A stretch of 48,569 nt of DNA from assembly GCA_964293155.1 (NCBI GenBank), contig CAXYYA010000028.1, forward strand, positions 1 through 48,569, given 5' to 3'. The notes below the pieces were generated by a model. It worked only from the letters and a program-made list of their open reading frames with translations. It was not told the DNA's origin and made no database searches. Below are positions 31,850 to 43,191 of this stretch, piece by piece. This DNA is from an uncultured Bacteroidales bacterium. GTDB taxonomy: Bacteria; Bacteroidota; Bacteroidia; Bacteroidales; Dysgonomonadaceae. The translations under genes and the position numbers were made by a program. The stretch's first letter is position 1; each line of letters opens with the position of its first letter.

Positions 31850-31949
31850 TTGTTTATGATTTCGGGACAAAAAACAAAGACATACGGAACAAGACTTTGC
31901 GTTGCATTATTCAACACCGGCCTGATGACGGTAAATTGCGTTGCTATTT

Positions 31950-33305
31950 TCAAAGTTTAAACCCTTTCAGATGTTCCGGTGTAACCTCCTGTTGTACAAT
32001 GGATTCCACGGTTTCGCTTTTGCGAATAAGATGCACTTTCCCCGTGGTATCAATCATGACCACATTGGGACGTAGCGTAATGAATTGCATCCATTGTGTC
32101 ATGTTGTAAGCGCCCACTTCGTGCACCACCACGCGGTCGTCCTTTTTTAACAGCGGTAAGCTAACGCTTTCGCGCAGGCAGTCAATGTTCATGCAAAGCG
32201 GCCCGTACAGCGCCATTTCTTCGGCATGCTGTGTGAAATCCTGCGCTGGCGATACTTTGTGATTGTACCAAAACGATGTGAACATGATATTTACCCCGAT
32301 ATCGAGCACGGTAGCCCGACGGCCGTTGGCCAGGCGTTTGGTTGCAAGCACGGAACCGAGCAGATAACCCGCTTCGTCAATCAATGCGCGTCCGGTTTCG
32401 AGGATCAGCAAGGGCAATTCATCGGGTTTAAAGCCGAATTGCAAAATGGTTCCGGTGATGGCTTCGGCATAATCGTCGAACGTAGGAATAACATCAGCAC
32501 CTTGCAGATACGAACCTTTGAGTGTGTTGGACGAACAGAATCCGCCACCCATATCAATGTATTTTATCTTTACGCCGGTTTTGTTTGCCGTATTTTGCGC
32601 CAGTTCGCACAGTTTGCGCGCCGCAACGGCATAAGCGTTGGCGGTGAGCATGTAGGTGCCGATGTGGGTGTGTAATCCTTCCAACTGAAGGTTTGGCTGC
32701 GTAATGATCTTCATGATCGCATTCCACGCCTGCCCGCTTTCGTAGTTGAAGCCGAACCTGTCCCACTGCGGATAAACGCCGGTGTCCATATTTACGCGAA
32801 TGGCAACACGCGCTTTTTGTGAAGTTCCTTCCAAAATCTCGATAAGCGAATAGAGCTCGTCGAAATGATCAATGTGGATGAGCGAACGGTTTTCCACGGC
32901 TATTTTCAGGTCATCGGCCGATTTATCAGGGCCGTTGAAAATGATCAGATTGCCCGGAACGCCGTTGCGAAGGGCTTTTTGGTATTCAAAACCCGATACG
33001 ACTTCCGCCCAGCTTCCTTCCTGATGGAAAACGTTGCAAACGGCATCCAGATAGTTGGTTTTGTAGCTCCAGGCGAATTGCACTTTCGGATAGCGCATTT
33101 TAAAGGCTTTTTGTGCTTTTTGATAGGTTTGGCGGATGGTTTTTTCGCTGATTACGAAGAGCGGCGAGCCGTATTCATCCATTAACCCGGCAACTGCCAC
33201 GCCATCAATTTGTTTCACAGGTATGTATTCGGTTCTGCTGCCGAATTTATTCATCAGGTTTGTGTTCAGTTTCTGAATCACAGGACGTTCGTAGGTTGGT
33301 TTCAT
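31950..33305 (-). CDS. PLP-dependent decarboxylase, Orn/DAP/Arg decarboxylase family 2 (LysA-like fold)
   Basis: 451 aa. PLP-lysine context FAWSYKTNY. Also contains DMGGGF and ETGRALI. C-terminal beta-barrel domain. Confidence 0.8.
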   Translation of the reverse strand: MKPTYERPVIQKLNTNLMNKFGSRTEYIPVKQIDGVAVAGLMDEYGSPLFVISEKTIRQTYQKAQKAFKMRYPKVQFAWSYKTNYLDAVCNVFHQEGSWAEVVSGFEYQKALRNGVPGNLIIFNGPDKSADDLKIAVENRSLIHIDHFDELYSLIEILEGTSQKARVAIRVNMDTGVYPQWDRFGFNYESGQAWNAIMKIITQPNLQLEGLHTHIGTYMLTANAYAVAARKLCELAQNTANKTGVKIKYIDMGGGFCSSNTLKGSYLQGADVIPTFDDYAEAITGTILQFGFKPDELPLLILETGRALIDEAGYLLGSVLATKRLANGRRATVLDIGVNIMFTSFWYNHKVSPAQDFTQHAEEMALYGPLCMNIDCLRESVSLPLLKKDDRVVVHEVGAYNMTQWMQFITLRPNVVMIDTTGKVHLIRKSETVESIVQQEVTPEHLKGFKL

Positions 33306-33349
33306 ATTGCCTTTGACCCCTGTAGTGGGATTTATTTAGTTATTATGAG

Positions 33350-33391
33350 CGTCCGACGGCTTGAAGTCCGTCTGACGCATATTTCAGACGG
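33350..33391 (-). promoter_or_regulatory. Three-arm alternative hairpin element between the ATP-grasp and decarboxylase genes
   Basis: Arms are CGTCCGACGG (33350-59), CCGTCTGACG (33368-77) and TCAGACGG (33384-91). The middle arm can pair with the left arm (9 of 10) or the right arm (8 of 8), but not both. The right arm abuts the ATP-grasp stop codon. Confidence 0.4.
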
Positions 33392-34447
33392 TTATCGAGC
33401 ATATTCCCCTGTTGTGGAAATCTGCTGAAATTCCGATATATCCACGATCATATCGTACGCGTAGCGGATAAATATTTTGCCGCTTTCGTACTCCGTGAAT
33501 GGTAGTACATCCTCGCTCAACGCCATTTTCACCAAAGCTTCGGCGTGATTTTGGCCGCAGCCGATAGCAAGGTACATCCAGGCGGGAAAACGGGGATTCA
33601 TTTCCAGCAGATAATATTCGTCTTTTTTTGTTTTGATAAACTCCAGTTCGCAACCGCCTTTCCATCGGCTGTTCTCAATTACGCGACGAGAAATCTCCAT
33701 GAGTTTATCGTCTTCCAACGAAACGCCCGACCATGCTTTTCCCTTGTCCGTGATGTACAATTTTCGCATCGGCACCGCGCCGATGCATCGGCCTTTTCCG
33801 TCGCCGATGGCGGTAACGTTTACTTCCGTTCCGGTTACAAACTCCTGGACGATAATGGGATATCCCCATTTGGCGACGATTTTGTAAAAATAAGAGCTGG
33901 CCTGCTCGTAGTTCGAAGCAATGTAGGCATCGTAGTATCGCCCTTTGATCACCATGGGATAATCGAGGTCATCTTCCAGTTTTTTAATTTCCGAAACCTG
34001 ATTAATGATATGGCTTTCCGGTACTTTTATATCGTATTTTTCGCCGAATTTATTCAGTTCCGATTTGTGGCGCTCTTCAAATTGCTCATGCGATGGCAGG
34101 AAAGTGGCTATCCCAAGCTCCGATTTTAATTCGTGTTGAATTTTGATGAAATTGTGCAATTCGGCATCAAAATTCGGGATGAGCACGTCAATTTTTTCCT
34201 GGCTCACGATGTATTGCAGCCGCTCTTTGAGCATGGCTGAGCCCGCGGTGGGCAAAGGCAGCTGATAGACTTTGTCCACCAATTCGTGCATATAAATTCC
34301 CGGTTCCAGCGTTTCGTACGATAAGCCGACAATGCGCACATCGAACGCCGAACTGTCTTTCAATGCACGAATAACGGGAATTCCCGGCCCGGGGCTGTCA
34401 ATGTTGTTGAGCCCAGTGACCGCTACGGTAATTTTTCGCTTATTCAT
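33392..34447 (-). CDS. ATP-grasp fold carboxylate-amine ligase
   Basis: 351 aa. Pre-ATP-grasp Rossmann-like N-terminus (KITVAVTGLNNIDSPGPG). Central VQEFVTGTEVNVTAIGDG. LLEMNPRFPAW is an E-x-N metal-binding motif. Confidence 0.8.
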   Translation of the reverse strand: MNKRKITVAVTGLNNIDSPGPGIPVIRALKDSSAFDVRIVGLSYETLEPGIYMHELVDKVYQLPLPTAGSAMLKERLQYIVSQEKIDVLIPNFDAELHNFIKIQHELKSELGIATFLPSHEQFEERHKSELNKFGEKYDIKVPESHIINQVSEIKKLEDDLDYPMVIKGRYYDAYIASNYEQASSYFYKIVAKWGYPIIVQEFVTGTEVNVTAIGDGKGRCIGAVPMRKLYITDKGKAWSGVSLEDDKLMEISRRVIENSRWKGGCELEFIKTKKDEYYLLEMNPRFPAWMYLAIGCGQNHAEALVKMALSEDVLPFTEYESGKIFIRYAYDMIVDISEFQQISTTGEYAR

Positions 34448-34685
34448 TTTCGGATAGTTGGTAGCTTTTTAACATATCCAGAAAATCGTTGAGGTCTTTC
34501 TCGGCCGTGTGGGCATCGAGTTCGTATTCATCCTGAAGTGCTTTCAAAACGGTTTCGTTACTTTCACCGTTTTTTAATTGTTGAAGAACGAAAACGCCGG
34601 TTTGGTTTACACTGAAACTGTCGCCTGTAAGTGGATTAAAGATAAATCCGTTTTCGCTGATGGCTATGTTTTTTCTAATGTTCAT
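34440..34685 (-). CDS. PqqD-family protein (peptide-binding RRE-like chaperone)
   Basis: 81 aa of typical PqqD size and pattern (F.NP.TGDSF.VN.TG.FVLQ.L..G ... L....Y.......KDL.DFL..L). Overlaps the ATP-grasp start by 8 nt. Confidence 0.65.
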   Translation of the reverse strand: MNIRKNIAISENGFIFNPLTGDSFSVNQTGVFVLQQLKNGESNETVLKALQDEYELDAHTAEKDLNDFLDMLKSYQLSENE

Positions 34686-34719: not shown

Positions 34720-35328
34720 TTACGGTTGTACGATATCGGAGAACTGTGACAAATTTAATACTTTTGGTTGATAATCAATGCCTCTGCGCGATAAATTTCG
34801 TACAAACGCCCGCAAATGGTTCTCCGAAGCGCGCAAGAGGTTGGAATAAATCCGTTGGATATCGGGATTGTCGGTTTTCTGCAAGTGCGATTGCAGGTCT
34901 TCGATATCCTGTTCTTCGATCAACGCTCCGGCTTGCAGCGCCTCGATGAGCGTTGTGCCTTTGGTGAGCTCGGTGTACATTTTCTGTAACTCACGATTGG
35001 TAAACACGCCTTCCGCTTTCGCGAGGTCTTTTAACCCATACGTATCCACAAGCCACATCATGGCGTTCTGGTGCACCGTTTCGCTACGCGAAATATTTCG
35101 GAAGATAGGGATGCTATACTGCCGGGCGTAAAACGTATAAACGTCGTGGGCAAGTTTTTCTTCTTCGCGCATGTACTCAATGCTTTGGATGTCGGCCTTC
35201 GTCAGATTTTGCGTTGAAGCCGGTATTCCCATCGTCTTATTCTGTGTGGTTTTAGCCCCATCGGCAGCTTGGGGCAACAAAAGTATTGCCCCTGCCGCGA
35301 TCAGAATGAATAAATATTTTGTTTTCAT
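34720..35328 (-). CDS. Secreted ferritin-like DUF2202-type protein (copy 2)
   Basis: 202 aa with a signal peptide. Motifs MREEEKLAHDVY, SE..H and a second half LIEEQDIEDL ... SENHLRAF. Confidence 0.6.
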   Translation of the reverse strand: MKTKYLFILIAAGAILLLPQAADGAKTTQNKTMGIPASTQNLTKADIQSIEYMREEEKLAHDVYTFYARQYSIPIFRNISRSETVHQNAMMWLVDTYGLKDLAKAEGVFTNRELQKMYTELTKGTTLIEALQAGALIEEQDIEDLQSHLQKTDNPDIQRIYSNLLRASENHLRAFVRNLSRRGIDYQPKVLNLSQFSDIVQP

Positions 35329-35332
35329 TTTT

Positions 35333-36025
35333 TTATGTGTTTATGATAGCGTTGAAATCATCGTTGCTCAATAATTGAGGTTGATATGCAATACCGTTGA
35401 ATTTGAGATTTGCGACAAAGGCTTTCAAATGAAACTGTGAAGCACGGAGTAGATTACCGTAAATTCTTTTGATAAACGGGTTTTCTGTTTCGGCTATTTC
35501 TCTTTGAAGATCAATAATATCGTGTTCTTCGATAAAAGCGCCGGCTTTGTAAGCATCTACAACTGTAAGGGCTTCGGTTGTAAGCTTTGTGTATAAATTT
35601 TGCAATTCTTCGATGTTAAATACCCCCGGTACCGTTTCGGCGGGAGTCTCAATTTTGTAGAGATTAATAAGCCAGGCGATAGCTTTTCCGTGTGCTATCT
35701 CGCTTTTGGAGATGTTGCTGAACACGGGTCTGGCGAATTTTTCGTTAAAATACACATACACATTATTGGCTAATTTTTCTTCTTCGCGCATGTACAGGAT
35801 GCTGTTTATTTCACTTTCGGTGAGTGGCGCGAGTTGCGTATTTGTCAACAAACAAAGCGAATCGGTGGTTGCAGCCAGTGTTGCATCAAGTCGCGTAGTT
35901 GAAACTGCGTTTATCAATGCGGCTTGTTCGGCATTTTCTTCCGGTGAATTTACGCTGTTCGCTTCACAACCGAAAAGCAAAATTGCAAGAAATGCCACGA
36001 CGGAAATTTTTTGATAAGTTTTCAT
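35333..36025 (-). CDS. Secreted ferritin-like DUF2202-type protein (copy 1)
   Basis: 230 aa with lipoprotein-like signal LLFGCE. Motifs MREEEKLANNVY, SKSEIAHGKA and FIEEHDIIDL ... ASQFHLKAF. Paralog of the next gene, 4 nt apart. Confidence 0.6.
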   Translation of the reverse strand: MKTYQKISVVAFLAILLFGCEANSVNSPEENAEQAALINAVSTTRLDATLAATTDSLCLLTNTQLAPLTESEINSILYMREEEKLANNVYVYFNEKFARPVFSNISKSEIAHGKAIAWLINLYKIETPAETVPGVFNIEELQNLYTKLTTEALTVVDAYKAGAFIEEHDIIDLQREIAETENPFIKRIYGNLLRASQFHLKAFVANLKFNGIAYQPQLLSNDDFNAIINT

Positions 36026-36077: not shown

Positions 36078-36108
36078 GAAAAAATGGGGAGCGAATCCCC
36101 ATTTTTTT
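36078..36108 (-). terminator. Bidirectional intrinsic terminator after the Gly/Arg repeat protein gene
   Basis: ATGGGGA-GCGAA-TCCCCAT flanked by A7 and T7, 16 nt after stop codon 36124. Confidence 0.8.
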
Positions 36109-36123
36109 GTGGTTGGTGCGTGG

Positions 36124-36687
36124 TTATTTTGTGGTTTCCCTACGGTCGCAAATACCGTTTTTATTGGCGTCCACAAAATTTACCGCACTGCCTTTTCCAT
36201 TCCGAAGGCCGGTGCCTTTCCCTGTACCGCGTCCCTGGCGCGGTGTTCCGTTTTCGAAGTTGTCACAAATGCCGTCTTTGTCGGCATCTACGAAATTTGC
36301 TCCACCACCTCTGCCGTTACGCAGTCCGTTGCCATAGCCTTGTCCGCGTCCTCCACGGGGAGTTCCGTTTTCGAAATTGTCGCACACGCCATCTTTATCG
36401 GCATCCACAAAGAAGCGTCCTTGTCCTCTGCCGTTGCGTAATCCCTGGCCTTTGCCTTGTCCGCGGCCGCTACCGTCGAGCAGTCGTTGTTTGCCGTTGG
36501 CATTCGGATTTCCGGGTGTTCCGTTCTCGAAATTATCGCAAACGCCGTTGTTGTTTTTGTCCACAAATGCAGGTCCGGTTTGAGCGGTTTTCGCCGTTTC
36601 CTTTGCTGCCTGATTTTGATTTTGGGCGGTTGCTAATCCTATGGTGGCAACCAGCGCCATTGCAGTGATAAATACTTTTGTTTTCAT
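36124..36687 (-). CDS. Secreted repeat protein with four FVDxDKDG(V/I)CDNFENGTP modules separated by Gly/Arg-rich linkers
   Basis: 187 aa with a signal peptide ending ATAQ. The modules carry a DxDxDG calcium-loop-like motif and one Cys each. Linkers are of the type GRGQGYGNGLRNGRGGG. Repeats 2 and 3 are 39 aa each. Confidence 0.7.
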   Translation of the reverse strand: MKTKVFITAMALVATIGLATAQNQNQAAKETAKTAQTGPAFVDKNNNGVCDNFENGTPGNPNANGKQRLLDGSGRGQGKGQGLRNGRGQGRFFVDADKDGVCDNFENGTPRGGRGQGYGNGLRNGRGGGANFVDADKDGICDNFENGTPRQGRGTGKGTGLRNGKGSAVNFVDANKNGICDRRETTK

Positions 36688-36717: not shown

Positions 36718-37293
36718 TTATCTGGTTTCGTTCCAATCGCGTCCGTAGCGATGCCGGTATCCGCGTCCCATACCGAGACTGTCGGTTCGGTTATATCCGT
36801 ATCCGTACCCGCGACGGGCATTCACCGTTTCATCGCGATACAACGGTAGGAATGCTCTTTCTAATTGAGCGCACTGCGCGTCGTTGCACGCCGATTTTAT
36901 CTTCAGGTAGAAATCGTTTGTAAGCTTTTTCAGTTCTGCGTGATGATTTCCGATGTGATCCGATAACGCATTTAATTTTGTTTCGTCGGGTTTCGGTTTG
37001 TTCAACTCCATGAACATTTCGTTTTTCAGCGAATCCATTTCGTAAATCAGCAGGTTGGCACGGGGTTGAAATTCCCGGTTCGCTGCGCGAAAAACATCCA
37101 TCTGATCATTGTCGAATCCCAGCCTTTGCCGAAAATACCTTCCGGTGAGCGGGGGCTGGCCTTCGTCAATAACAATTGCTGTGTTATCGTCTTTTTCCTG
37201 CTGATTGTGATAGACGATAGTTCCGATGGTTGTCAGGTTCAGCACCACAAGCAGTGCAATTACCCACATCATTATTTTATTCGTCTTATTCAT
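36718..37293 (-). CDS. Membrane-anchored periplasmic Spy/CpxP/ZraP-like protein (heavy-metal-sensor type), tentative
   Basis: 191 aa with an N-terminal TM anchor (IMMWVIALLVVLNLTTIGTIVY) and a helical periplasmic part. Occupies the usual position after an ECF sigma/anti-sigma pair. Overlaps the anti-sigma stop by 8 nt. Confidence 0.5.
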   Translation of the reverse strand: MNKTNKIMMWVIALLVVLNLTTIGTIVYHNQQEKDDNTAIVIDEGQPPLTGRYFRQRLGFDNDQMDVFRAANREFQPRANLLIYEMDSLKNEMFMELNKPKPDETKLNALSDHIGNHHAELKKLTNDFYLKIKSACNDAQCAQLERAFLPLYRDETVNARRGYGYGYNRTDSLGMGRGYRHRYGRDWNETR

Positions 37294-37579
37294 AATCGTC
37301 GAAATTATAATAGCCTAAATTCTCGATCTGACTGTCGTTTATGTTCATCGTAAACTCGTGAGAAACGCTTTTCTGGTAACTGTTACCGATGCTTACGCCT
37401 AAAAATGCAACGGCAGCAAGGCTGGCAGCCACAACCACAGTTTGCCAAACGGGCGTTCTGCGACGCTCCGGTTGTTGCCTTTTTTCGATTTCGGCCATCA
37501 CCCGCGTACTCAGGAACGGATTATGTTCCGTTTGCTTTTCGCGTTTGATGAAATCGTCTATGTACTGTTCCGTTTTCAT
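37286..37579 (-). CDS. Small single-pass anti-sigma factor (regulon 2)
   Basis: 97 aa with one TM helix (WQTVVVAASLAAVAFLGVSIG). Lies immediately downstream of the ECF sigma gene. Confidence 0.6.
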   Translation of the reverse strand: MKTEQYIDDFIKREKQTEHNPFLSTRVMAEIEKRQQPERRRTPVWQTVVVAASLAAVAFLGVSIGNSYQKSVSHEFTMNINDSQIENLGYYNFDDYE

Positions 37580-37596
37580 TTTTTGTTCGTTTTATA

Positions 37597-37626
37597 GGTT
37601 AGACATTTGTATTGATTATTTCCTAC
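37597..37626 (-). promoter_or_regulatory. ECF-type promoter motif, regulon 2, internal site (GTAGGAAA-N13-TGTCTAA)
   Basis: The minus strand reads GTAGGAAATAATCAATACAAATGTCTAACC. The -35-like block overlaps the last codons and stop of the sigma gene. The -10-like block is 20 nt before the anti-sigma ATG 37579. Confidence 0.6.
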
Positions 37627-38161
37627 GGTCATATTCTAATTTTTTTTGCAGAGTGCTTTTTGCACGTTGTAAAAGTTGTTCCACAGCGCCTTCCGATTTT
37701 TTCATGACGGCGGCAATTTCTTTCTGCGGTAATTCTTCGTATTTACTCAGGATGAAAGCTGTTCGTTGCGAATCGGGCAGGGAATTGATGGCGTTTTTTA
37801 TCCGCTTGTCCCGTTCCGATTGTTCCAATCGTTCCAACGGCGTCTTTTCCTCACTCTGTTTGTGAAAGATGTTTTCCAACGATTCCACCACGCGGTTCTT
37901 CTTTTTTCGATTCACAAAATTGATACTCGCGTTTACGGTAATCCGGTACAGCCATGTAACAAATTGGGCTTCGCCCTTGAAATCGGGCAACGATTGATAT
38001 ATTTTAATGAAAACTTCCTGCGTGATATCTTCCGCATCTGCTTTGGAGTGCACAAAACCCAACGTCGTTCGGAACACCATACCCTGGTATTTCTCCATAA
38101 GTTCTTTAAAGACAATGGTGTTACCTGAAATTATTTCTTGTATGAGTTGCTCGTCCGACAT
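37616..38161 (-). CDS. ECF-type RNA polymerase sigma factor (regulon 2)
   Basis: 181 aa. Region 2 EDITQEVFIKIYQ. Region 4 LPDSQRTAFILSKYEELPQKEIAAVMKKSEGAVEQLLQRA. Confidence 0.9.
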   Translation of the reverse strand: MSDEQLIQEIISGNTIVFKELMEKYQGMVFRTTLGFVHSKADAEDITQEVFIKIYQSLPDFKGEAQFVTWLYRITVNASINFVNRKKKNRVVESLENIFHKQSEEKTPLERLEQSERDKRIKNAINSLPDSQRTAFILSKYEELPQKEIAAVMKKSEGAVEQLLQRAKSTLQKKLEYDRRK

Positions 38162-38183
38162 GTGCAGCAGTTCTTTTTCGTTT

Positions 38184-38213
38184 GTTTAGACAACGAAGAC
38201 CGGTTTTTCCTAC
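38184..38213 (-). promoter_or_regulatory. ECF-type promoter motif, regulon 2, autoregulatory site (GTAGGAAA-N13-TGTCTAA)
   Basis: The minus strand reads GTAGGAAAAACCGGTCTTCGTTGTCTAAAC. Blocks and spacing are identical to 37597..37626. The -10-like block is 25 nt before ATG 38161. Confidence 0.6.
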
Positions 38214-38251
38214 GGTTGGTGATAATTTAACATTGCAATTTCGTTAAAAAA

Positions 38252-38282: not shown

Positions 38283-38392
38283 CAAAAGATAATGTTCTAT
38301 CGAACAACCGATATCATGATGTGTTAGTTTCTCTTTCGACTGCCGTCTCAGGCAGGTATTTTTTTAGCGCTACTGATTTAAACCAACCAGCT

Positions 38393-39664
38393 ATGAAAAC
38401 GAATTTTTTTATTTTTGGCATAATATCCCTTATGCTTGTATCCTGTTATCAGGAATATCCTGCACATTTTAGGCAGTATATTGATGTGAATGCTTCCATT
38501 GATGGGCTGAAAACCCGCGCCACAAATGCCTCATGGGAAGCGAATGATGCCATCGGAATTTATATGAAAATCAGTGGAGAGGGTTTGTCTGTACCAGCTT
38601 TGGCTGAAAATTCGAAATATATTACCGACGGAACGTCCGCTTTTCAGTCTGCTACGGCCGATGGAGCTATCAGCTTTCCGCTCGACGGCACTGATGTGGA
38701 TTTCATCGCGTATTATCCACATCAAACAACAATCACGGACTTAACGTATCCGGTAAATGTTTCCGATCAAAGCAGCCTGCCGGCTATTGACTTGTTGTAT
38801 TCAAACAATGCCGCGGGGCTAAATTCTCAAAATCCGGATGTTGGGCTGACTTTCGTTCACCAATTATCGAAGATAAACGTGCTAATTATGCCCGAAGATG
38901 CAACGTCTGATTTAAGCGGTTTAACCGTAACGATGACCGGTGTGGGAACCTCCGCAACATTTTCATTAGCCGACGGAACGCTTTCGGCGCCCGCTATCAC
39001 GGGTAATGTCGCATTCAATATGAGTTCCGACGGACGCACTGCTCAGGCTATTCTATTGCCGATGGCCGATTTCACGGGTAAATCGCTTATTATCGCTTTT
39101 GGATCCAATTCTTACGAATTCCCGTTGACTCAAGGGGTAAATATCACTTCTTTCGAAAAAGCAACGCAATACACGTATAACGTTACGCTTTCATCGCAAG
39201 CACTGTCGGTTTCCAACGCAACCATCACCGATTGGGTTACCGGCCCGTCGGAAAATGTGATCATCGGAAGCGTCGGAACGGCGCCTGTAACCGGCGGAAC
39301 ACTCGATGATCCGTTTACTATTGAGGAGGCAATTGCCAATCAGGGGTTGATGGATAGATGGGTAAGAGGGTTTATTGTGGGTTACTATAAAACGACTTCC
39401 TATAAATCATTTACCACAAGTGTAGATGATGTGACGAGCACCACCAACATTGCTTTAGCAACAGTTAGCACAGAGACCGATTCAACCAAAACGTTTCCTG
39501 TACAATTGTCTGCTACCCAAATCAGAGATACACTCAATCTGCTGGATCATCCTGAAAATTTGGGCAGAGAAGTTCTGGTACGAGGAGATTTGGCAACTTA
39601 TCAATACATTGCCGGAATGAAGGCGGCTGATGGAGCAGTAATTAACGGAGATACCATTCCCTAA
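38393..39664 (+). CDS. Fimbrillin-family (Mfa/FimA-like) lipoprotein with an additional C-terminal domain
   Basis: ATG 38393 gives MKTNFFIFGIISLMLVSCYQ (lipobox). Fimbrillin-like blocks SWEANDAIGIYM and DFIAYYPH. The C-terminal ~130 aa (DPFTIEEAIANQG ... VLVRGDLATYQ) look like a separate OB-like module. The track start 38321 is unlikely. Confidence 0.6.
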   Translation: MKTNFFIFGIISLMLVSCYQEYPAHFRQYIDVNASIDGLKTRATNASWEANDAIGIYMKISGEGLSVPALAENSKYITDGTSAFQSATADGAISFPLDGTDVDFIAYYPHQTTITDLTYPVNVSDQSSLPAIDLLYSNNAAGLNSQNPDVGLTFVHQLSKINVLIMPEDATSDLSGLTVTMTGVGTSATFSLADGTLSAPAITGNVAFNMSSDGRTAQAILLPMADFTGKSLIIAFGSNSYEFPLTQGVNITSFEKATQYTYNVTLSSQALSVSNATITDWVTGPSENVIIGSVGTAPVTGGTLDDPFTIEEAIANQGLMDRWVRGFIVGYYKTTSYKSFTTSVDDVTSTTNIALATVSTETDSTKTFPVQLSATQIRDTLNLLDHPENLGREVLVRGDLATYQYIAGMKAADGAVINGDTIP

Positions 39665-40782
39665 TTTACGTGATACCCCTGGCTATGCATTTCCGATGCA
39701 CGAAAGAGGGTGTATTTTTCCTCGTTTAGCGGATAATCCCAGCAACCGAGGCTGTGATAGATTTCGCCGCCGAAACCCGATTTGAATTTATACAACCCGT
39801 ACATCGGGTGTTCGGGATCGGGCGTGGGCGATATGCCGAACATATCATACTGGGTGCAGCCTGCGGCTTTCGATAGCCGGATGGCTTCCCACTGCAACGC
39901 GTATGCAGCCATCAGGTTCCGGTTTTCCGACGAAGAGGCGCCATACAAATACGAACCCCTGTTTCCCGAAATTACCAGAAACATGGCTGCGAGCGGTTTT
40001 TGGTTATATTCCGCAATCAAAAGACGCACACGCGCCGGTGAACGTGTATTATCGGCTTTTGCCGAAAGCACGGCTTCAAAGTATTTTATATCGTTTAGCA
40101 GGATACCGTTTCGTGCCGCCGTCTCTTTGTAGAGTTCATACCACGTGGAAATTTCCTCCATCCCTGCCGATTTTACGGTTGCGCCGCGACGTTGTGCCAG
40201 ACGGATGTTGTAGCGGGTTTTCGGTTTCATGCGTTGCAGGATGCTTTCTTCGTCTTGTCTTAGGTTCAGATAAACGGTACTTGCCGGAAGTATGTTGGAA
40301 AGCGCTTTTTTGAAATTCCAGTTTTCCGTATTGAAATTGAACCGGAATTCTTGTGTGCGTAATTCCGGTTCGCCTTTCCATAAGCCGTTTTCATCAAAAT
40401 TATCGGCTTCTTTTGTCCAGTATGATTCCCAACAAAGATCATAGCGAATGAGGATGCAGTTATTCGGTAAATACGGGCGAATGCTTTCCGATAATTCTTC
40501 CAGAAAAAGGCTTTGAAATTCATCGGATGGTTCCAGTTCAGGGCCGTAAGGCACATACGCCACAGAATGATTCCTGTCGATTTGTTGCAGGACGATCAGC
40601 AGGTCTGAAACCAGCAATTTATCGCTCCTGGAATGAAAAATATCCGACTCCCTCGATTTAAACCCGACAGCAAGCGTTTCGGCGCCCAGCTTGTTCTTTA
40701 CTTCCGACCAAAATGCCGTCTGTTGCAGAATGGGCGTTTTGTTCAGTTCGTCCGTGTCTTTTTTCCGAATATCTAACAGCAT
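39661..40782 (-). CDS. FemAB-family (aminoacyl-tRNA-dependent peptidyltransferase fold, GNAT-like) protein
   Basis: 373 aa. The C-terminal half has NRGSYLYGASSSENRNLMAAYALQWEAIRLSKAAGCTQYDMFGI, typical of FemAB/FemX-like proteins. Confidence 0.65.
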   Translation of the reverse strand: MLLDIRKKDTDELNKTPILQQTAFWSEVKNKLGAETLAVGFKSRESDIFHSRSDKLLVSDLLIVLQQIDRNHSVAYVPYGPELEPSDEFQSLFLEELSESIRPYLPNNCILIRYDLCWESYWTKEADNFDENGLWKGEPELRTQEFRFNFNTENWNFKKALSNILPASTVYLNLRQDEESILQRMKPKTRYNIRLAQRRGATVKSAGMEEISTWYELYKETAARNGILLNDIKYFEAVLSAKADNTRSPARVRLLIAEYNQKPLAAMFLVISGNRGSYLYGASSSENRNLMAAYALQWEAIRLSKAAGCTQYDMFGISPTPDPEHPMYGLYKFKSGFGGEIYHSLGCWDYPLNEEKYTLFRASEMHSQGYHVN

Positions 40783-40804
40783 GATTATTTTTATTTTACG
40801 GGTG

Positions 40805-40835
40805 CAAAGGTAGGCATTATTTCCATGTAAACAAA
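40805..40835 (-). promoter_or_regulatory. Primary-sigma promoter for the FemAB-like gene (-33 TTTG, 19 nt spacer, -7 TAccTTTG)
   Basis: The minus strand reads TTTG-TTTACATGGAAATAATGCC-TACCTTTG, 23 nt before ATG 40782. Confidence 0.6.
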
Positions 40836-40861
40836 ACGGCGCAAACCCGAAAATTTGCGCC
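40829..40861 (-). terminator. Intrinsic terminator after the TonB-dependent receptor gene
   Basis: GGCGCAAA-loop-TTTGCGCC, an 8-bp stem, followed on the minus strand by GTTTTGTTT. Confidence 0.7.
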
Positions 40862-40872
40862 GAAAGCTTTTC

Positions 40873-43191
40873 CTATATTGTGAATTTTAACCCGGTAAAG
40901 AACGTGCGCGGTAAAGACGGGCCGTACATGTAGCCGGCGTCGCGAAGCGCTCCCTGATCAAAATCCTGCTGAAAGCTATTGAAAAGGTTCTGTATACCTG
41001 CGTTAAGTTGCACAAAAGTGCTAGTCGTTAAGCGAAAATCTTTTGCTACTTTAACAGTAAGGTCGAAAAAATCCGGTGTTCGCACCGCGACATCTTCCGG
41101 CACATACCCGGCAAAGTGTTGTACCCACATAGGTCCTGTATATACGCCTGAAACTGAAATGTTGAACGTTTCAACCGGTAATATATTGGCAGTAAGGTAG
41201 CCATAAACATCTGGTGTGCGAAACATATTTCGTTTCGGTACCACATCGGGATTGTTGCTCCACGATTCAGCTTCGTCATACAAACTCTCTTGAACTGTTG
41301 CGCCCAACTGAAGTTGAAATTTACGGCTTGGAGCTATTTTTCCTTCCATGTTTAGGCCTTTAACCACTGCCCCTGATCCGTTTCTCCTTTCCTGTAATAA
41401 ATTTCCTTGCTCATCTCTTCCGATCTCTTCCAGCAGAAACACGTCTTTCAGGTGCGTATAAAACCCTTCGATCAGCAGGTTGGCTTGCACAACGCCGAAT
41501 GTTCTGTAGATATCGGCCGATATACTGAAAGTTTGTGACCGCTCGGGTTTGAGATCAGGAGAGAGCTGAATGATGCATACCTCTCCGCCTACGGCGGTAA
41601 TGTGCAAGTCTTCATCGAAAGCCTGCGGAGCCCGAAAACCAGTGGAATATCCGCCGCGAAACACGATAAACGGGTTAGGAGTATAACGCACGTTTATCCT
41701 CGGACTAAAAATAGCATCCTGTATCAGGTTGTGCTTATCTAAGCGGGCGCCTAGTAAGATACTCCATTGCTCGTTTTTCCATTCGTTCTGGGCAAAAACA
41801 CTCTGTATATTCACCGATTGATCCAGAATGCGGTTATATCCGAGCATTTGGTCGTGCATTACGTTATAATTCATTTCCAATCCAGCGGTGATTATTGAAG
41901 GCATAAACAGAAAACGATCCGCACTGTAGTTGTATTGCATGCCGCCCATCATGCTTTTATCGTTTGTTGTTCCGTAAGCATTCGGGTCTTTCTGCGCGCC
42001 GTAGTAACTTTGTCTGTCTATAAATTGCCCTGAGAGATACAGGTTTACCTTGTGTTTGTAATCGCGCGACAACACGTTATAGTTTATGTTTGCGGAGTGA
42101 ATGTTATGTTCCGCTTGTTCGGTGATATCGGTTTCGTGTGGTGGTTTATGGAGCAGATTACCGCCACGACGGAATTCGTTGATAAAATGATATTCGGCTT
42201 TGAGTTTATGATAGTTGTTGAAATTATAAAACCCGCGAAGCCCGATATTGCTGCTATTCAATTTGCCAATTTCGGTAAATCCGTCGCCGTCGTAATCCAG
42301 CGCAGCGCGCTGGCGTGAGGAGCCGAAGATCATCATGCCCGTTTTTAAATTGCCGTTTACCAGTGAGGTGTGAAAGGAGAGGTTGTTGTCCGGTGATTTT
42401 CCGTTGATAATATTTGTAACATTGTTAATAGATAATGAGTTGGCTTTGGGCTCTTTTGTTATGATATTTATAGTCCCCGCTATAGCGTTAGAGCCGAACA
42501 AAGCCGATCCGCCGCCGCGTACAACTTCAACACGCTCAATCATATTGGCGGGAATCTGCTCGATGCCGTACACGCCGGCCAATGCGCTAAAGATAGGACG
42601 GCTGTCAATAAGGATTTGTGAATATGGACCGTCTAGTCCGTTGATGCGAACCTGCTGAAATCCGCAATTCTGACAGTTGCTTTCTACACGTAATCCCGGC
42701 TGAAAGTTCAATCCCTGCGCCAGCGTTACGGAATTGGTGTTTTCCATAAGCAACGGAGTGATAACGTTTACTATCGTGGGCGCTTCTCTGCGTTTAGTTT
42801 CTGTGCGGTTGGCAGATACAACTACCGTTTCAAGTATTATCTCGTCGTCATCTACTTCGAAATTTACTTCAATGGTTTCACTCTCCTGTAAAGTAACAGA
42901 TTTTTCTACCGGCTTATATCCTATACCGGAGACCATTAGCGTGAAATTTCCTTCGGGCAGGTTTTTTAGGTAATAATGTCCCGATGCGTCGGTTGAAGTG
43001 CCGAAGTGGGTTCCTTTTAAAGATACAGTTACAAAGGGAATATGTTCCTTTGTGGATTTATTGAGCACGTGTCCAATAATATTGGCATCGCTACTTCTTT
43101 GTCGATTACGATGCTGATGTCTGTTTTGTTGTGGAAATACAGCGGTTGTTATGCTGAACAAGATGCACAGCACTATAATAATTTTTTTCAT
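40873..43191 (-). CDS. TonB-dependent outer-membrane receptor with a carboxypeptidase-regulatory-like N-domain
   Basis: 772 aa with a signal peptide, then His/Arg/Gln-rich QQNRHQHRNRQRSS. CarbopepD_reg-like block GHVLNKSTKEHIPFVTVSLKG...GHYYLKNLPEGNFTLMVSGIGYKP. Plug and barrel follow. Confidence 0.9.
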   Translation of the reverse strand: MKKIIIVLCILFSITTAVFPQQNRHQHRNRQRSSDANIIGHVLNKSTKEHIPFVTVSLKGTHFGTSTDASGHYYLKNLPEGNFTLMVSGIGYKPVEKSVTLQESETIEVNFEVDDDEIILETVVVSANRTETKRREAPTIVNVITPLLMENTNSVTLAQGLNFQPGLRVESNCQNCGFQQVRINGLDGPYSQILIDSRPIFSALAGVYGIEQIPANMIERVEVVRGGGSALFGSNAIAGTINIITKEPKANSLSINNVTNIINGKSPDNNLSFHTSLVNGNLKTGMMIFGSSRQRAALDYDGDGFTEIGKLNSSNIGLRGFYNFNNYHKLKAEYHFINEFRRGGNLLHKPPHETDITEQAEHNIHSANINYNVLSRDYKHKVNLYLSGQFIDRQSYYGAQKDPNAYGTTNDKSMMGGMQYNYSADRFLFMPSIITAGLEMNYNVMHDQMLGYNRILDQSVNIQSVFAQNEWKNEQWSILLGARLDKHNLIQDAIFSPRINVRYTPNPFIVFRGGYSTGFRAPQAFDEDLHITAVGGEVCIIQLSPDLKPERSQTFSISADIYRTFGVVQANLLIEGFYTHLKDVFLLEEIGRDEQGNLLQERRNGSGAVVKGLNMEGKIAPSRKFQLQLGATVQESLYDEAESWSNNPDVVPKRNMFRTPDVYGYLTANILPVETFNISVSGVYTGPMWVQHFAGYVPEDVAVRTPDFFDLTVKVAKDFRLTTSTFVQLNAGIQNLFNSFQQDFDQGALRDAGYMYGPSLPRTFFTGLKFTI

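What the first reader, a model, noticed from the sequence alone, without database searches (positions are those of the whole stretch)
36124..36687. Secreted four-module DxDxDG-Cys / Gly-Arg linker repeat protein in ECF regulon 2
The protein is almost entirely FVD(A/K)(D/N)K(D/N)G(V/I)CDNFENGTP modules alternating with linkers such as GRGQGKGQGLRNGRGQG. Each module has a calcium-loop-like DxDxDG (as in thrombospondin type 3 / EF-hand-like loops) and exactly one Cys. The opposite strand is also open (ORFs 36084..36668 and others), but only the minus frame has a signal peptide and a coherent repeat. Its position after sigma, anti-sigma and a Spy-like protein suggests a metal-buffering or envelope-stress effector. 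The Gly-rich linkers are also plausible substrates for the M23 peptidase encoded 4 kb downstream; that link is speculation.
Basis: partly seen in the sequence, partly recalled or inferred. Interest (0 to 1): 0.5.

Follow-up and report, generated by a model that had tools for sequence, protein, structure and literature searches.

The report
ECF-controlled secreted metal-loop repeat protein
This is a real gene for a small, secreted, largely disordered protein built from four calcium-loop-like modules that each carry one cysteine; it is the last gene of a stress-sensor operon that resembles a known metal-sensing system, and it belongs to a large family in anaerobes that nobody has studied, most likely a periplasmic metal-binding buffer.

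Summary
ORF 36124-36687 (-) encodes a 187-aa protein with a Sec signal peptide and four modules, [FY][VI]-D-x-[DN]-x-[DN]-G-[IV]-C-D-x-x-E, separated by Gly/Arg/Asn linkers. Substitutions against 21 homologues fall mostly on its third codon positions, so this frame is the coding one and the opposite-strand ORF is not.

It belongs to an uncharacterised family (about 2,000 clusters at 50% identity), mostly in Bacteroidales but also in Clostridia and archaea. In 46 of 56 species loci an ECF-type sigma gene is adjacent; 36 have the order sigma, anti-sigma, Metal_resist protein, repeat protein. A conserved promoter motif, GTAGGAAA-N16-TGTCTAA, occurs only before the sigma and anti-sigma genes. The Metal_resist neighbour's model best matches CnrX, the Ni/Co sensor of Cupriavidus. 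In other genomes the gene directly follows a copper-exporting ATPase.

Best reading (about 0.45): an inducible, disordered periplasmic metal buffer, comparable in role to SilE, that uses EF-hand-like loops with a thiolate. Metal binding, and which metal, are untested.

The proposed M23 peptidase link has no support. A role as RiPP precursor for the neighbouring PqqD/ATP-grasp genes is unlikely. The four-module form arose by a recent 117-nt tandem duplication.

The parts
38183..38216 (-). ECF-type promoter motif P1 (ACCGTAGGAAAAACCGGTCTTCGTTGTCTAAACA), about 55 nt upstream of the sigma start codon
   Evidence: A motif GTAGGAAA-N16-TGTCTAA was found upstream of sigma genes in 18 of 41 related loci. 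The weight-matrix score here is 35.2 bits, one of only two hits above 14 bits in the whole window on both strands.
37616..38161 (-). ECF sigma factor, 181 aa
   Evidence: Pfam Sigma70_r2 (4.7e-16) and Sigma70_r4_2 (8.1e-16); NCBIfam TIGR02937 sigma70-ECF at 120 bits against a cut-off of 42.9.
37596..37629 (-). Second ECF-type promoter motif P2 (ACCGTAGGAAATAATCAATACAAATGTCTAACCT). It overlaps the 3' end of the sigma gene and lies just upstream of the anti-sigma gene.
   Evidence: Weight-matrix score 34.6 bits. The matrix was trained only on sigma-upstream sites, yet an equivalent site precedes the anti-sigma gene in 47 related loci.
37286..37579 (-). Small single-pass anti-sigma factor, 97 aa
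   Evidence: Weak NCBIfam anti-sigma hit (1.6e-4). It has a hydrophobic segment VVVAASLAAVAFLGVSIG. Its position is conserved in 33 of 56 species loci. Orthologues in the sister clade carry a zf-HC2 domain.
36718..37293 (-). Membrane-anchored CnrX/ZraP/CpxP-fold protein (Pfam Metal_resist), 191 aa, with a disordered Gly/Arg/Tyr-rich tail
   Evidence: Pfam PF13801 at 30.4 bits against a cut-off of 29.2. AlphaFold2 model has pLDDT 80.5, with an N-terminal helix followed by a helical hairpin. The top Foldseek matches in the PDB are CnrX (target-normalised TM 0.68-0.73, probability 1.0, E 0.06-0.2), then NccX, ZraP, CpxP and Spy. H118 is invariant and C136 near-invariant.
36124..36687 (-). The repeat protein gene, 187 aa: signal peptide (aa 1-21, window 36625-36687) followed by four modules and Gly/Arg/Asn linkers
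36526..36567 (-). Module 1, FVDKNNNGVCDNFE (aa 41-54)
   Evidence: family logo.
36370..36411 (-). Module 2, FVDADKDGVCDNFE (aa 93-106)
   Evidence: It lies in the extra unit that three-module homologues lack.
36253..36294 (-). Module 3, FVDADKDGICDNFE (aa 132-145)
36136..36177 (-). Module 4, FVDANKNGICDRRE (aa 171-184), the C-terminal module type conserved across Bacteroidales
36245..36465 (.). 117-nt tandem duplication (module plus linker) that turns the usual three-module protein into four modules
   Evidence: Tandem Repeats Finder: period 117, 1.9 copies, 78% matches, score 279. Alignment A1 shows a 39-42 aa insertion relative to homologues of about 145 aa.
36079..36107 (-). Terminator-like hairpin (AAAAAAUGGGGA-UUCGC-UCCCCAUUUUUU) 17 nt after the stop codon
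   Evidence: RNA fold -15.4 kcal/mol, z-score -5.3, 0 of 200 shuffles fold as well. The simple terminator scan did not list it. Similar hairpins follow only 14 of 79 homologous genes, against 5 of 79 control segments.
34720..36025 (-). Two DUF2202 ferritin-like genes (35333-36025 and 34720-35328). They are frequent neighbours of the family but probably a separate transcription unit.
   Evidence: Pfam DUF2202 at 1.4e-38 and 4.7e-43. Homologous to the solved MJ0754 structure, PDB 3Q4O, E 8.7e-35. A DUF2202 gene lies within 3 kb in 14 of 56 species loci. No ECF-promoter hit in front of them.

Best explanation
Proposed function. The gene encodes a Sec-exported, intrinsically disordered periplasmic protein. 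Its four short loops, D-x-[DN]-x-[DN]-G-[IV]-C-D-x-x-E, are EF-hand-like cation sites that each add one thiolate. The basic Gly/Arg/Asn linkers keep the chain flexible.

Proposed regulation. It is the only non-regulatory product of a four-gene operon: ECF sigma, single-pass anti-sigma, membrane-anchored CnrX-like periplasmic sensor, repeat protein. The operon is driven by two copies of an ECF-type promoter, GTAGGAAA-N16-TGTCTAA.

Proposed sequence of events. An envelope signal is sensed by the CnrX-like protein. The signal is most likely excess metal, with copper or another thiophilic or divalent metal as candidates. The anti-sigma factor then releases the sigma factor, and the operon induces itself. 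The repeat protein accumulates in the periplasm and binds metal at several sites, acting as a buffer or as a hand-off chaperone. In role this resembles SilE/PcoE.

What is shown: the coding frame, the repeat anatomy, the family, the conserved gene order, the promoter motif, the fold class of the neighbour, predicted disorder, and the copA pairing in other genomes.

What is inferred: export, that the motif is the sigma's own promoter, metal binding, which metal, and the buffering role.
For: - Loop pattern. In 493 modules from 204 proteins, positions 3 and 5 are only D or N, position 6 is G in 95%, position 7 is I/V in 95%, and position 12 is E in 66%. The regex that collected the modules fixed D1 and C8 and allowed only D or E at position 9, so those three are not independent there; D1 and C8 are independently invariant in the alignments.
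- Link to known Ca-binding loops. The family profile also hits the loop 'YIDANNNGVADAGE' of an SdrD_B repeat protein. Such B repeats bind Ca2+ (PMC3775735, citing Josefsson 1998).
- Precedent for loops without flanking helices. EF-hand-loop-like motifs bind Ca2+ in disordered proteins (PMC8391695).
- Disorder. The AlphaFold2 model has mean pLDDT 47, rising to about 60 only at the modules.
- Gene order. In 46 of 56 species loci an ECF-type sigma gene is adjacent on the same strand. 36 have the order sigma, anti-sigma, Metal_resist, repeat. The association survives other gene orders and other phyla.
- Promoter motif. All 92 hits in 1.65 Mb of related loci lie on the operon strand: 39 before sigma, 47 before anti-sigma, 1 before a repeat gene that has no sigma nearby, and 5 with no recognised gene downstream. 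None lies on the opposite strand. The window has two hits, both in this operon.
- Neighbour. Its model matches the ECF-coupled Ni/Co sensor CnrX best.
- Copper link. In six loci without the cassette, the repeat gene directly follows a copper-type P1B ATPase (TIGR01511, 610 bits against a cut-off of 397).
- Published context. An ECF group with a heavy-metal-resistance protein at +2 has been described as metal-related (ECF281, PMC7826278).
- Functional analogue. SilE is a disordered periplasmic metal sponge (PMC5008109).
Against: - No experiment or solved structure exists for any family member.
- Foldseek E-values for the neighbour are weak (0.06 or worse), and only one His is invariant in it, so its metal site is unproven.
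- Position 12 is Glu in only 66% of modules.
- Asn outnumbers Asp at positions 3 and 5, which suggests modest affinity.
- The mature protein is net basic (+7), unusual for a cation buffer.
- Many cassettes of the sister clade sit beside thioredoxin, Trx-TrxR, OsmC and Crp/Fnr genes. That points to redox rather than metal stress.
- The sigma factor was not shown to use the motif.
Confidence: 0.45

Rival explanations
1. Thiol/redox effector. The invariant cysteines are the functional groups. They might act as a periplasmic sacrificial or signalling thiol, or form disulfides that staple loop pairs. The operon would then respond to oxidative or thiol-reactive stress rather than to metal load.
For: - Cys is invariant in every module.
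- Orthologous anti-sigma factors in the sister clade carry a zf-HC2 (ZAS-type) domain.
- Those cassettes lie beside Crp/Fnr (10 loci), a thioredoxin-like gene (8), Trx-TrxR fusions (16) and OsmC (5).
- P0091 loci carry thioredoxin and a persulfide-reductase-like gene.
- The CnrX-like neighbour also has a near-invariant Cys.
Against: - The strict D-x-[DN]-x-[DN]-G geometry around the Cys is a cation-loop signature, not a redox motif.
- Three-module proteins with exactly three Cys are common (39 proteins), so simple intramolecular pairing cannot be general.
- The copA pairing and the CnrX-like fold point to metal.
- Copper stress is itself thiol-reactive, so the two readings overlap.
Confidence: 0.17
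2. Signalling component rather than effector. The disordered protein would be a ligand or feedback modulator of the CnrX-like sensor, as CpxP is for CpxA. It might bind the sensor through the conserved G-L-R-N-G-K-G motif and be released or degraded when cations bind.
For: - It is always encoded directly after the sensor, and the operon has no other output gene.
- A linker motif, G[LMF]RNGxG, lies at a fixed 11-residue distance before the next module in 76 modules, which suggests a binding element.
- CpxP/Spy-fold proteins bind unfolded clients (established knowledge).
- The linkage persists with a different anti-sigma type (RsgI-like) in Clostridia.
Against: - Family members occur without any sigma cassette: next to copA, or alone.
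- The linker motif is present in only about 37% of family proteins.
- Module number varies from 1 to 15, which fits a capacity function better than a specific ligand.
Confidence: 0.15
3. RiPP-like precursor. The repeats would be core peptides recognised by the PqqD-type protein and modified by the ATP-grasp ligase and decarboxylase encoded 1.5-4 kb downstream, as in graspetides with repeated cores.
For: - In close relatives the repeat gene lies just upstream of PqqD, ATP-grasp and decarboxylase, sometimes only 2-80 nt away (L017, L025, L096-L128).
- The modules are rich in Asp, Lys and Thr.
Against: - Only 6 of 56 species loci of the family have the trio.
- Of the 80 loci fetched with the ATP-grasp, all 47 with 68% identity or less keep the trio but lack the repeat gene.
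- The protein has a Sec signal peptide, whereas ATP-grasp enzymes are cytoplasmic.
- Asn replaces Asp freely at loop positions 3 and 5 and Lys is not conserved. That fits metal ligation, not ester or amide cross-links.
- No ECF-promoter hit precedes the trio.
Confidence: 0.03
4. Substrate of the M23 peptidase: the Gly-rich linkers would be cut by the UT+M23 protein encoded at 29678-31870.
For: - The linkers are 28% Gly.
- An M23 domain is encoded 4.3 kb downstream.
Against: - The M23 gene accompanies the PqqD/ATP-grasp/decarboxylase cluster, not the repeat gene.
- It is absent from most family loci.
- Its best NCBIfam matches are peptidoglycan metallopeptidases.
- Gly-Gly bonds are rare in the linkers.
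Confidence: 0.02

Closest known systems
EF-hand-type Dx[DN]xDG calcium loops, especially the loop of SdrD B repeats, thrombospondin type 3 repeats and the Excalibur motif DxDxDGxxCE
   Same: - It is a 12-residue loop with D at position 1, D/N at 3 and 5, G at 6, D at 9 and E at 12. The window's modules match 12 of the 13 positions of PROSITE PS00018 as I recall it.
- The family profile hits an SdrD_B loop.
- Like TSP3 and Excalibur, it has a Cys next to the loop and is extracytoplasmic.
- Like the Excalibur-like motifs of disordered proteins, it has no flanking helices (PMC8391695).
   Different: - There is no helix-loop-helix, no beta-sandwich and no Excalibur or TSP_3 Pfam match.
- The Cys is at loop position 8, one residue earlier than in Excalibur, and is invariant.
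- The modules are only about 14-18 residues long and are embedded in basic Gly/Arg/Asn linkers.
- Binding has not been tested.
SilE / PcoE periplasmic 'molecular sponge' proteins (PMC5008109)
   Same: - It is small, Sec-exported and predicted to be disordered.
- It has several short repeated metal-ligand motifs.
- It is encoded with, and presumably induced by, a metal-stress regulatory system.
- In other genomes the family gene is paired with a Cu-type P1B ATPase.
   Different: - There is no sequence similarity.
- The ligands would be Asp/Asn/Cys rather than His/Met.
- Control is by an ECF sigma, not a two-component system.
- It is found in anaerobes.
CnrYXH (Cupriavidus metallidurans) and the computationally defined group ECF281 (PMC7826278), as models for the operon
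   Same: - It has an ECF sigma, a small membrane anti-sigma and a membrane-anchored periplasmic protein with a CnrX/Metal_resist fold.
- ECF281 is described as sigma, zinc-finger anti-sigma at +1 and heavy-metal-resistance protein at +2. That is the order seen in the sister clade.
   Different: - The gene order differs from cnrYXH.
- No efflux pump lies in the operon; the repeat protein at +3 is the only output.
- The CnrX ligand set could not be verified.
- The window's anti-sigma lacks the zinc finger.
- ECF group membership could not be tested here.
Pfam DUF6520 (PF20130) and PF27309 'MJ0753_N'
   Same: - 54 of 120 homologues match DUF6520 at E<=0.01, and some are named 'DUF6520 family protein' by NCBI.
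- Many homologues carry a precomputed PF27309 hit.
   Different: - The window protein scores 20.9 bits against the DUF6520 cut-off of 25.4, and only over its signal-peptide region.
- The PF27309 hit is marked 'faint', and that model is not in the local Pfam copy.
- Neither family has a known function.

Membership tests
EF-hand domain (Pfam EF-hand_1 / PROSITE PS00018) | 12-residue loop D-x-[DNS]-x-[DNS]-G-x-[ILVC]-[D..]-x-x-[DE] | tested here: met
   Module logo from 493 modules and the window modules. Only the hydrophobic residue after E12, which the PROSITE pattern as I recall it requires, is missing.
EF-hand domain (Pfam EF-hand_1 / PROSITE PS00018) | Helix-loop-helix with flanking helices, and a significant profile match | tested here: not met
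   The AlphaFold2 model shows no flanking helices. No EF-hand hit for the window protein. Only 2 of 120 homologues give weak hits (best E 0.0037).
Excalibur (PF05901) | DxDxDGxxCE motif and a Pfam match | tested here: not met
   The motif here is DxDxDGxCD, with the Cys one residue earlier. There is no PF05901 hit in the window protein or in 120 homologues.
Thrombospondin type 3 repeat | DxDxDGxxDxxD loops stapled by paired cysteines, and a Pfam TSP_3 match | tested here: not met
   The loop spacing is the same, but there is no TSP_3 hit. Cys counts are often odd, with 39 proteins having three modules and three Cys.
SdrD_B / CarboxypepD_reg-like domain | Ca loop at the start of a roughly 110-aa beta-sandwich domain | tested here: not met
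   Only the loop is shared. 2 of 120 homologues hit weakly (E 0.0053). The predicted structure has no beta-sandwich.
DUF6520 (PF20130) | Score above Pfam's gathering cut-off of 25.4 bits | tested here: not met
   20.9 bits, over residues 1-35 only. 54 of 120 relatives match at E<=0.01.
PF27309 MJ0753_N | Match to the Pfam model | not testable with these tools
   The model is absent from the local Pfam copy. The precomputed hit for this protein is marked 'faint'.
SilE/PcoE metal sponge | Periplasmic and intrinsically disordered | tested here: met
   Signal peptide with a conserved Gln at +1. AlphaFold2 mean pLDDT is 47. Both are predictions only.
SilE/PcoE metal sponge | Repeated His/Met motifs and sequence homology to SilE | tested here: not met
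   The mature protein has no His or Met, and there is no Pfam match.
CnrYXH-type ECF metal-sensing module (the operon) | ECF sigma, small membrane anti-sigma and a periplasmic CnrX-fold sensor with an N-terminal anchor | tested here: met
   Metal_resist scores 30.4 against a cut-off of 29.2. CnrX is the top Foldseek match, but with E of 0.06 or worse.
CnrYXH-type ECF metal-sensing module (the operon) | CnrX metal ligands (three His, Glu, Met) and control of an efflux pump | tested here: inconclusive
   Only H118 is invariant; C136, E96 and D103 are conserved in 90% or more. There is no pump in the operon.
ECF281 (Casas-Pastor et al. 2021) | Sigma falls in the ECF281 clade; zinc-finger anti-sigma at +1; heavy-metal-resistance protein at +2 | not testable with these tools
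   The gene order fits the description in PMC7826278. No ECF group models were available. The window's anti-sigma lacks zf-HC2, whereas sister-clade orthologues have it.
Graspetide / RiPP precursor | Obligate co-occurrence with the modifying ATP-grasp, a cytoplasmic leader, and conserved acceptor and donor residues | tested here: not met
   see the rival explanations.

The most novel reading that the evidence does not exclude
The family defines a new class of extracytoplasmic metal site, a 'thio-EF loop' (D-x-[DN]-x-[DN]-G-[IV]-C-D). This is an EF-hand-geometry loop with an invariant thiolate, strung on disordered basic linkers. It would serve across anaerobic Bacteroidales, Clostridia and archaea as the dedicated output of sigma/anti-sigma envelope sensors, binding thiophilic metals such as Cu+, Zn2+, Fe2+ or Cd2+ and folding when it does. 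The cassette, with its promoter GTAGGAAA-N16-TGTCTAA, would be a self-contained sensor-plus-sponge module.
Probability: 0.3. Interest if true: 0.65.

Novelty: new variant of a known kind. Interest (0 to 1): 0.5.

Why it matters
Metal and envelope-stress handling in anaerobic Bacteroidales, which include gut and digester organisms, is poorly known.

This finding links four things:
- a large unstudied protein family, about 2,000 clusters at 50% identity;
- a CnrX-like ECF signalling cassette;
- a defined promoter motif;
- in other genomes, a copper exporter.

That gives a concrete and cheap set of experiments. If the loops do bind metal through Asp/Asn plus Cys, this would be a new sequence solution for a periplasmic metal buffer. 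It would also give a functional handle on DUF6520 / MJ0753_N-type proteins and on an ECF group known only from computation.

Tried and rejected
- Solved structures. A search with the family profile returned only artificial Gly-Ser linkers and RGG tails, so there is no real homologue.
- Literature. Searches for DUF6520, MJ0753, PF27309 and ECF281 found nothing on this family. The supplement of the ECF classification paper is not held.
- Structure of the repeat protein. The AlphaFold2 model had pLDDT 47, too low for a fold search, so none was run.
- Fusion with DUF2202. None was found among 120 DUF2202 homologues. The link suggested by the Pfam name MJ0753_N remains unverified.
- RiPP-precursor idea. 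Tested by a reverse neighbourhood search from the ATP-grasp gene and rejected.
- M23 link. Rejected on neighbourhood grounds.
- Terminator. The hairpin after the gene is real in the window but is not a family feature (14 of 79 against 5 of 79 controls). The consensus terminator scan missed it.
- Opposite-strand ORF. Rejected by the distribution of substitutions over codon positions.
- Promoter in the sister clade. The motif was not found upstream of sigma genes in the zf-HC2 clade. There it lies only between the sigma and anti-sigma genes.
Full report
**Observation**

ORF 36124-36687 on the minus strand encodes 187 aa. The N-terminus, MKTKVFITAMALVATIGLATA|QNQ, has the shape of a Sec/SPI signal peptide. 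The Gln after the predicted cut is at least 90% conserved in family alignments, which fits the Bacteroidetes Q-rule (PMC5837995).

The mature part consists of four modules: FVDKNNNGVCDNFE, FVDADKDGVCDNFE, FVDADKDGICDNFE and FVDANKNGICDRRE. Each has one Cys, so there are four Cys in all. The modules are acidic and the linkers basic, with Gly at 22% of the mature chain, pI 9.5 and net charge +7.

At the DNA level a 117-nt unit is tandemly duplicated. Close homologues of about 145 aa have three modules and lack exactly this unit. The four-module form is therefore a recent expansion. This exact protein was seen in only a handful of assemblies, and a near-identical one is annotated as hypothetical in a Petrimonas sp. 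MAG.

**Which strand is coding**

The opposite-strand ORF 36084-36668 exists. In codon-threaded alignments with 21 homologous genes, substitutions fall 671/369/1642 on positions 1/2/3 of the minus frame. Position 3 of the minus frame is position 2 of that plus-strand ORF, so the plus ORF is not under coding constraint.

The plus ORF stays open because the sense gene has almost no TTA, CTA or TCA codons. Long open antisense stretches are typical of the whole family.

**The family**

A search of 5.8 billion proteins gave 678 hits. A profile search of 1.84 billion cluster representatives gave 2,074 at E<=1e-3 and 546 at E<=1e-10. Typical members are 100-150 aa with two modules, and the range is 1 to 15 modules.

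Among GTDB species genomes, at least 249 loci encode a relative. Most are in Bacteroidales: Dysgonomonadaceae, Paludibacter, Rikenellaceae, Prolixibacteraceae, Marinilabiliaceae and Salinivirgaceae. Others are in Clostridia, Ignavibacteria, Chloroflexota, Planctomycetota, Hydrogenedentes, Nitrospinota, Theionarchaea and Methanosarcinales.

In 493 modules the pattern is [FY][VI]-D-x-[DN]-x-[DN]-G-[IV]-C-D-x-x-E. Positions 3 and 5 are never anything but D or N, Gly6 is at 95% and Glu12 at 66%. The regex fixed D1 and C8. Their invariance is independently seen in alignments.

Outside the modules the sequence changes freely. Linkers are Gly/Arg/Asn-rich in Bacteroidales and Cys-rich in Clostridia. 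A clade-specific motif, G[LMF]RNGxG, sits exactly 11 residues before the next module in 76 cases.

**What the module resembles**

The loop has the spacing of the EF-hand / Dx[DN]xDG calcium loop and of thrombospondin type 3 repeats. The family profile picks up the loop 'YIDANNNGVADAGE' that opens each SdrD_B repeat of a 1,693-aa protein. Sdr B repeats carry a functional Ca2+-binding EF-hand loop (PMC3775735).

The Excalibur motif DxDxDGxxCE also pairs such a loop with a Cys, and EF-loop-like motifs bind Ca2+ at about 100 uM in disordered proteins (PMC8391695).

None of these families is matched by profile, and the Cys register differs from Excalibur. The protein therefore works like them at the motif level but is not a member of any.

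The AlphaFold2 model is disordered, with mean pLDDT 47. Confidence rises to about 60 only at the modules, which form small local turns. No solved structure is related. Pfam offers only DUF6520, which is below threshold here and covers only the signal-peptide region, plus a precomputed faint hit to PF27309 'MJ0753_N'. I found no literature on either.

**Genomic context**

In the window the gene is the fourth in a minus-strand row:
- an ECF sigma (37616-38161);
- a 97-aa single-pass anti-sigma (37286-37579);
- a 191-aa Metal_resist protein with an N-terminal membrane anchor (36718-37293);
- the repeat gene.

Gaps between these genes are 36, -8 and 30 nt. A strong hairpin follows the stop codon.

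I compared 56 species-representative loci that have at least 2 kb on both sides:

| Feature | Loci |
|---|---|
| ECF-type sigma gene adjacent on the same strand | 46 |
| Order sigma, anti-sigma, Metal_resist, repeat | 36 |
| Sigma directly downstream of the repeat gene | 11 |
| DUF2202 gene within 3 kb | 14 |
| PqqD/ATP-grasp/decarboxylase trio downstream | 6 |

The 11 loci with sigma downstream include Clostridia in which an RsgI-like anti-sigma follows. A distant two-module homologue that is abundant in gut-type Bacteroidales sits in the same four-gene cassette, with entirely different genes on either side. In six loci without the cassette, the repeat gene directly follows a copper-type P1B ATPase.

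**Promoter**

Upstream of the sigma genes of the window's clade I found a bipartite motif, GTAGGAAA-N16-TGTCTAA. A weight matrix built only from those sites gives exactly two hits in the 48.6-kb window. One lies 55 nt upstream of the sigma gene (38183-38216). The other overlaps the end of the sigma gene, just upstream of the anti-sigma gene (37596-37629).

Across 1.65 Mb of related loci, all 92 hits lie on the operon strand. 39 precede sigma and 47 precede anti-sigma, including in the sister clade that contributed no training sites. 5 have no recognised gene downstream. One directly precedes a repeat gene in a locus with no sigma nearby.

The shape (GGAA at -35, GTC at -10) is ECF-like. That this sigma uses the motif is an inference. 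No hit precedes the DUF2202 genes or the PqqD cluster. Within the window, the detectable regulon is therefore the four-gene operon, and the repeat protein is its only non-regulatory product.

**The neighbour**

The Metal_resist protein passes Pfam's threshold narrowly (30.4 against 29.2 bits). Its AlphaFold2 model is confident (pLDDT 80.5). It shows a transmembrane helix, a helical hairpin domain and a disordered Gly/Arg/Tyr tail.

The best PDB matches are the periplasmic Ni/Co sensor CnrX of the CnrYXH ECF system (target-normalised TM 0.68-0.73), then NccX, ZraP, CpxP and Spy. E-values are only 0.06-1. H118 is invariant, and C136, E96 and D103 are conserved in at least 90% of sequences.

A published ECF classification describes group ECF281 as sigma, zinc-finger anti-sigma at +1 and heavy-metal-resistance protein at +2, and calls it metal-related (PMC7826278). 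That matches the sister-clade cassettes. I could not test group membership.

**Mechanism and rivals**

The most economical reading is an inducible periplasmic metal buffer or chaperone. The CnrX-like protein senses the signal, the sigma is released, the operon induces itself, and the disordered multi-site protein binds metal through Asp/Asn oxygens and one thiolate per loop. SilE is the closest functional analogue (PMC5008109). The copA pairing suggests copper or another thiophilic metal, while the loop geometry suggests Ca2+-like coordination. The metal is unresolved. I put this reading at about 0.45.

The rivals are:
- A thiol/redox effector (about 0.17). It is supported by thioredoxin, Trx-TrxR, OsmC and Crp/Fnr genes beside many cassettes and by ZAS-type anti-sigma factors.
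- A feedback ligand of the sensor (about 0.15).
- A RiPP precursor for the downstream PqqD/ATP-grasp/decarboxylase genes (about 0.03).

I tested the RiPP idea from the other direction. All 80 loci fetched with the ATP-grasp keep the trio. Only close relatives (75% identity or more) carry the cassette and repeat gene. None of the 47 more distant loci (68% identity or less) has the repeat gene, and two of them have sigma plus Metal_resist only. The repeat protein is therefore not the trio's obligate partner.

The M23 idea has no neighbourhood support.

**Verdict**

The object is an uncharacterised, widespread family whose regulation can be stated precisely but whose chemistry is untested. It is a new variant of known kinds (EF-loop metal sites, disordered periplasmic sponges, CnrX-type ECF modules) rather than something categorically new.

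Noticed in passing
window 31950-34685 (-): The PqqD-like (34440-34685), ATP-grasp (33392-34447) and PLP Orn/DAP-type decarboxylase (31950-33305) genes form a tightly conserved trio. The order is the same in all 80 metagenome loci fetched with the ATP-grasp (56-89% identity). In the window's relatives it abuts the ECF cassette, and in two distant loci it follows sigma plus Metal_resist without a repeat gene. The product is unknown; it could be RiPP-like or a metallophore.
   Followed up: partly
window 29678-31870 (-): A fusion of a urea-transporter-like membrane domain with an M23 peptidase domain follows the trio. The M23 part matches peptidoglycan metallopeptidases best.
   Followed up: partly
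window 34720-36025 (-): Two tandem DUF2202 ferritin-like genes are clear homologues of the solved but uncharacterised MJ0754 (PDB 3Q4O, E 8.7e-35). The Pfam name of the repeat family, MJ0753_N, hints that the neighbouring gene in M. jannaschii carries the module, which would make this an ancient gene pair. I could not verify that. In L089 a DUF4405 gene lies between two DUF2202 genes; both families are listed in ferrosome gene clusters (bioRxiv 10.1101/2020.01.10.902569).
   Followed up: partly
window 37596-37629 (-): A second copy of the ECF-type promoter motif lies inside the 3' end of the sigma gene. It would allow anti-sigma, sensor and repeat protein to be transcribed without sigma. In the zf-HC2 sister clade this internal site is the only one detected.
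   Followed up: yes
L013, L024, L033, L046, L065, L093: These loci have pairs of copA (copper-type P1B-1 ATPase with an HMA domain) followed about 115 nt later by a two-module family member, with no sigma cassette.
   Followed up: partly
L049, L060, L074, L076, L085, L088 (Clostridia); L066 (Hydrogenedentes): These are family members from other phyla, with Cys-rich rather than Gly/Arg-rich linkers. The regex counted up to 15 modules in one protein of the set, but the count was not made locus by locus. In the Clostridia loci an ECF-like sigma gene follows directly. An RsgI-like anti-sigma, confirmed by Pfam for L060, belongs to a cluster found in six loci.
   Followed up: partly
L038, L047, L067, L077, L078, L080, L090 and others: Cassettes of the zf-HC2 clade are flanked by a Crp/Fnr regulator (about 2.4 kb upstream), a thioredoxin-like gene, thioredoxin-thioredoxin-reductase fusions and OsmC. 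This suggests a redox-stress neighbourhood.
   Followed up: partly
window 38321-43191: A Mfa-like fimbrillin with a DUF6359 domain (38321-39664, +) lies upstream of the operon. It is followed by a FemAB-family transferase (39661-40782, -) and a TonB-dependent receptor (40873-43191, -). The FemAB gene is not conserved next to the cassette in relatives.
   Followed up: no
window 36718-37293 (-), aa 163-191: The CnrX-like neighbour ends in its own disordered Gly/Arg/Tyr-rich tail (RRGYGYGYNRTDSLGMGRGYRHRYGRDWNETR). Its composition is reminiscent of the repeat protein's linkers.
   Followed up: no
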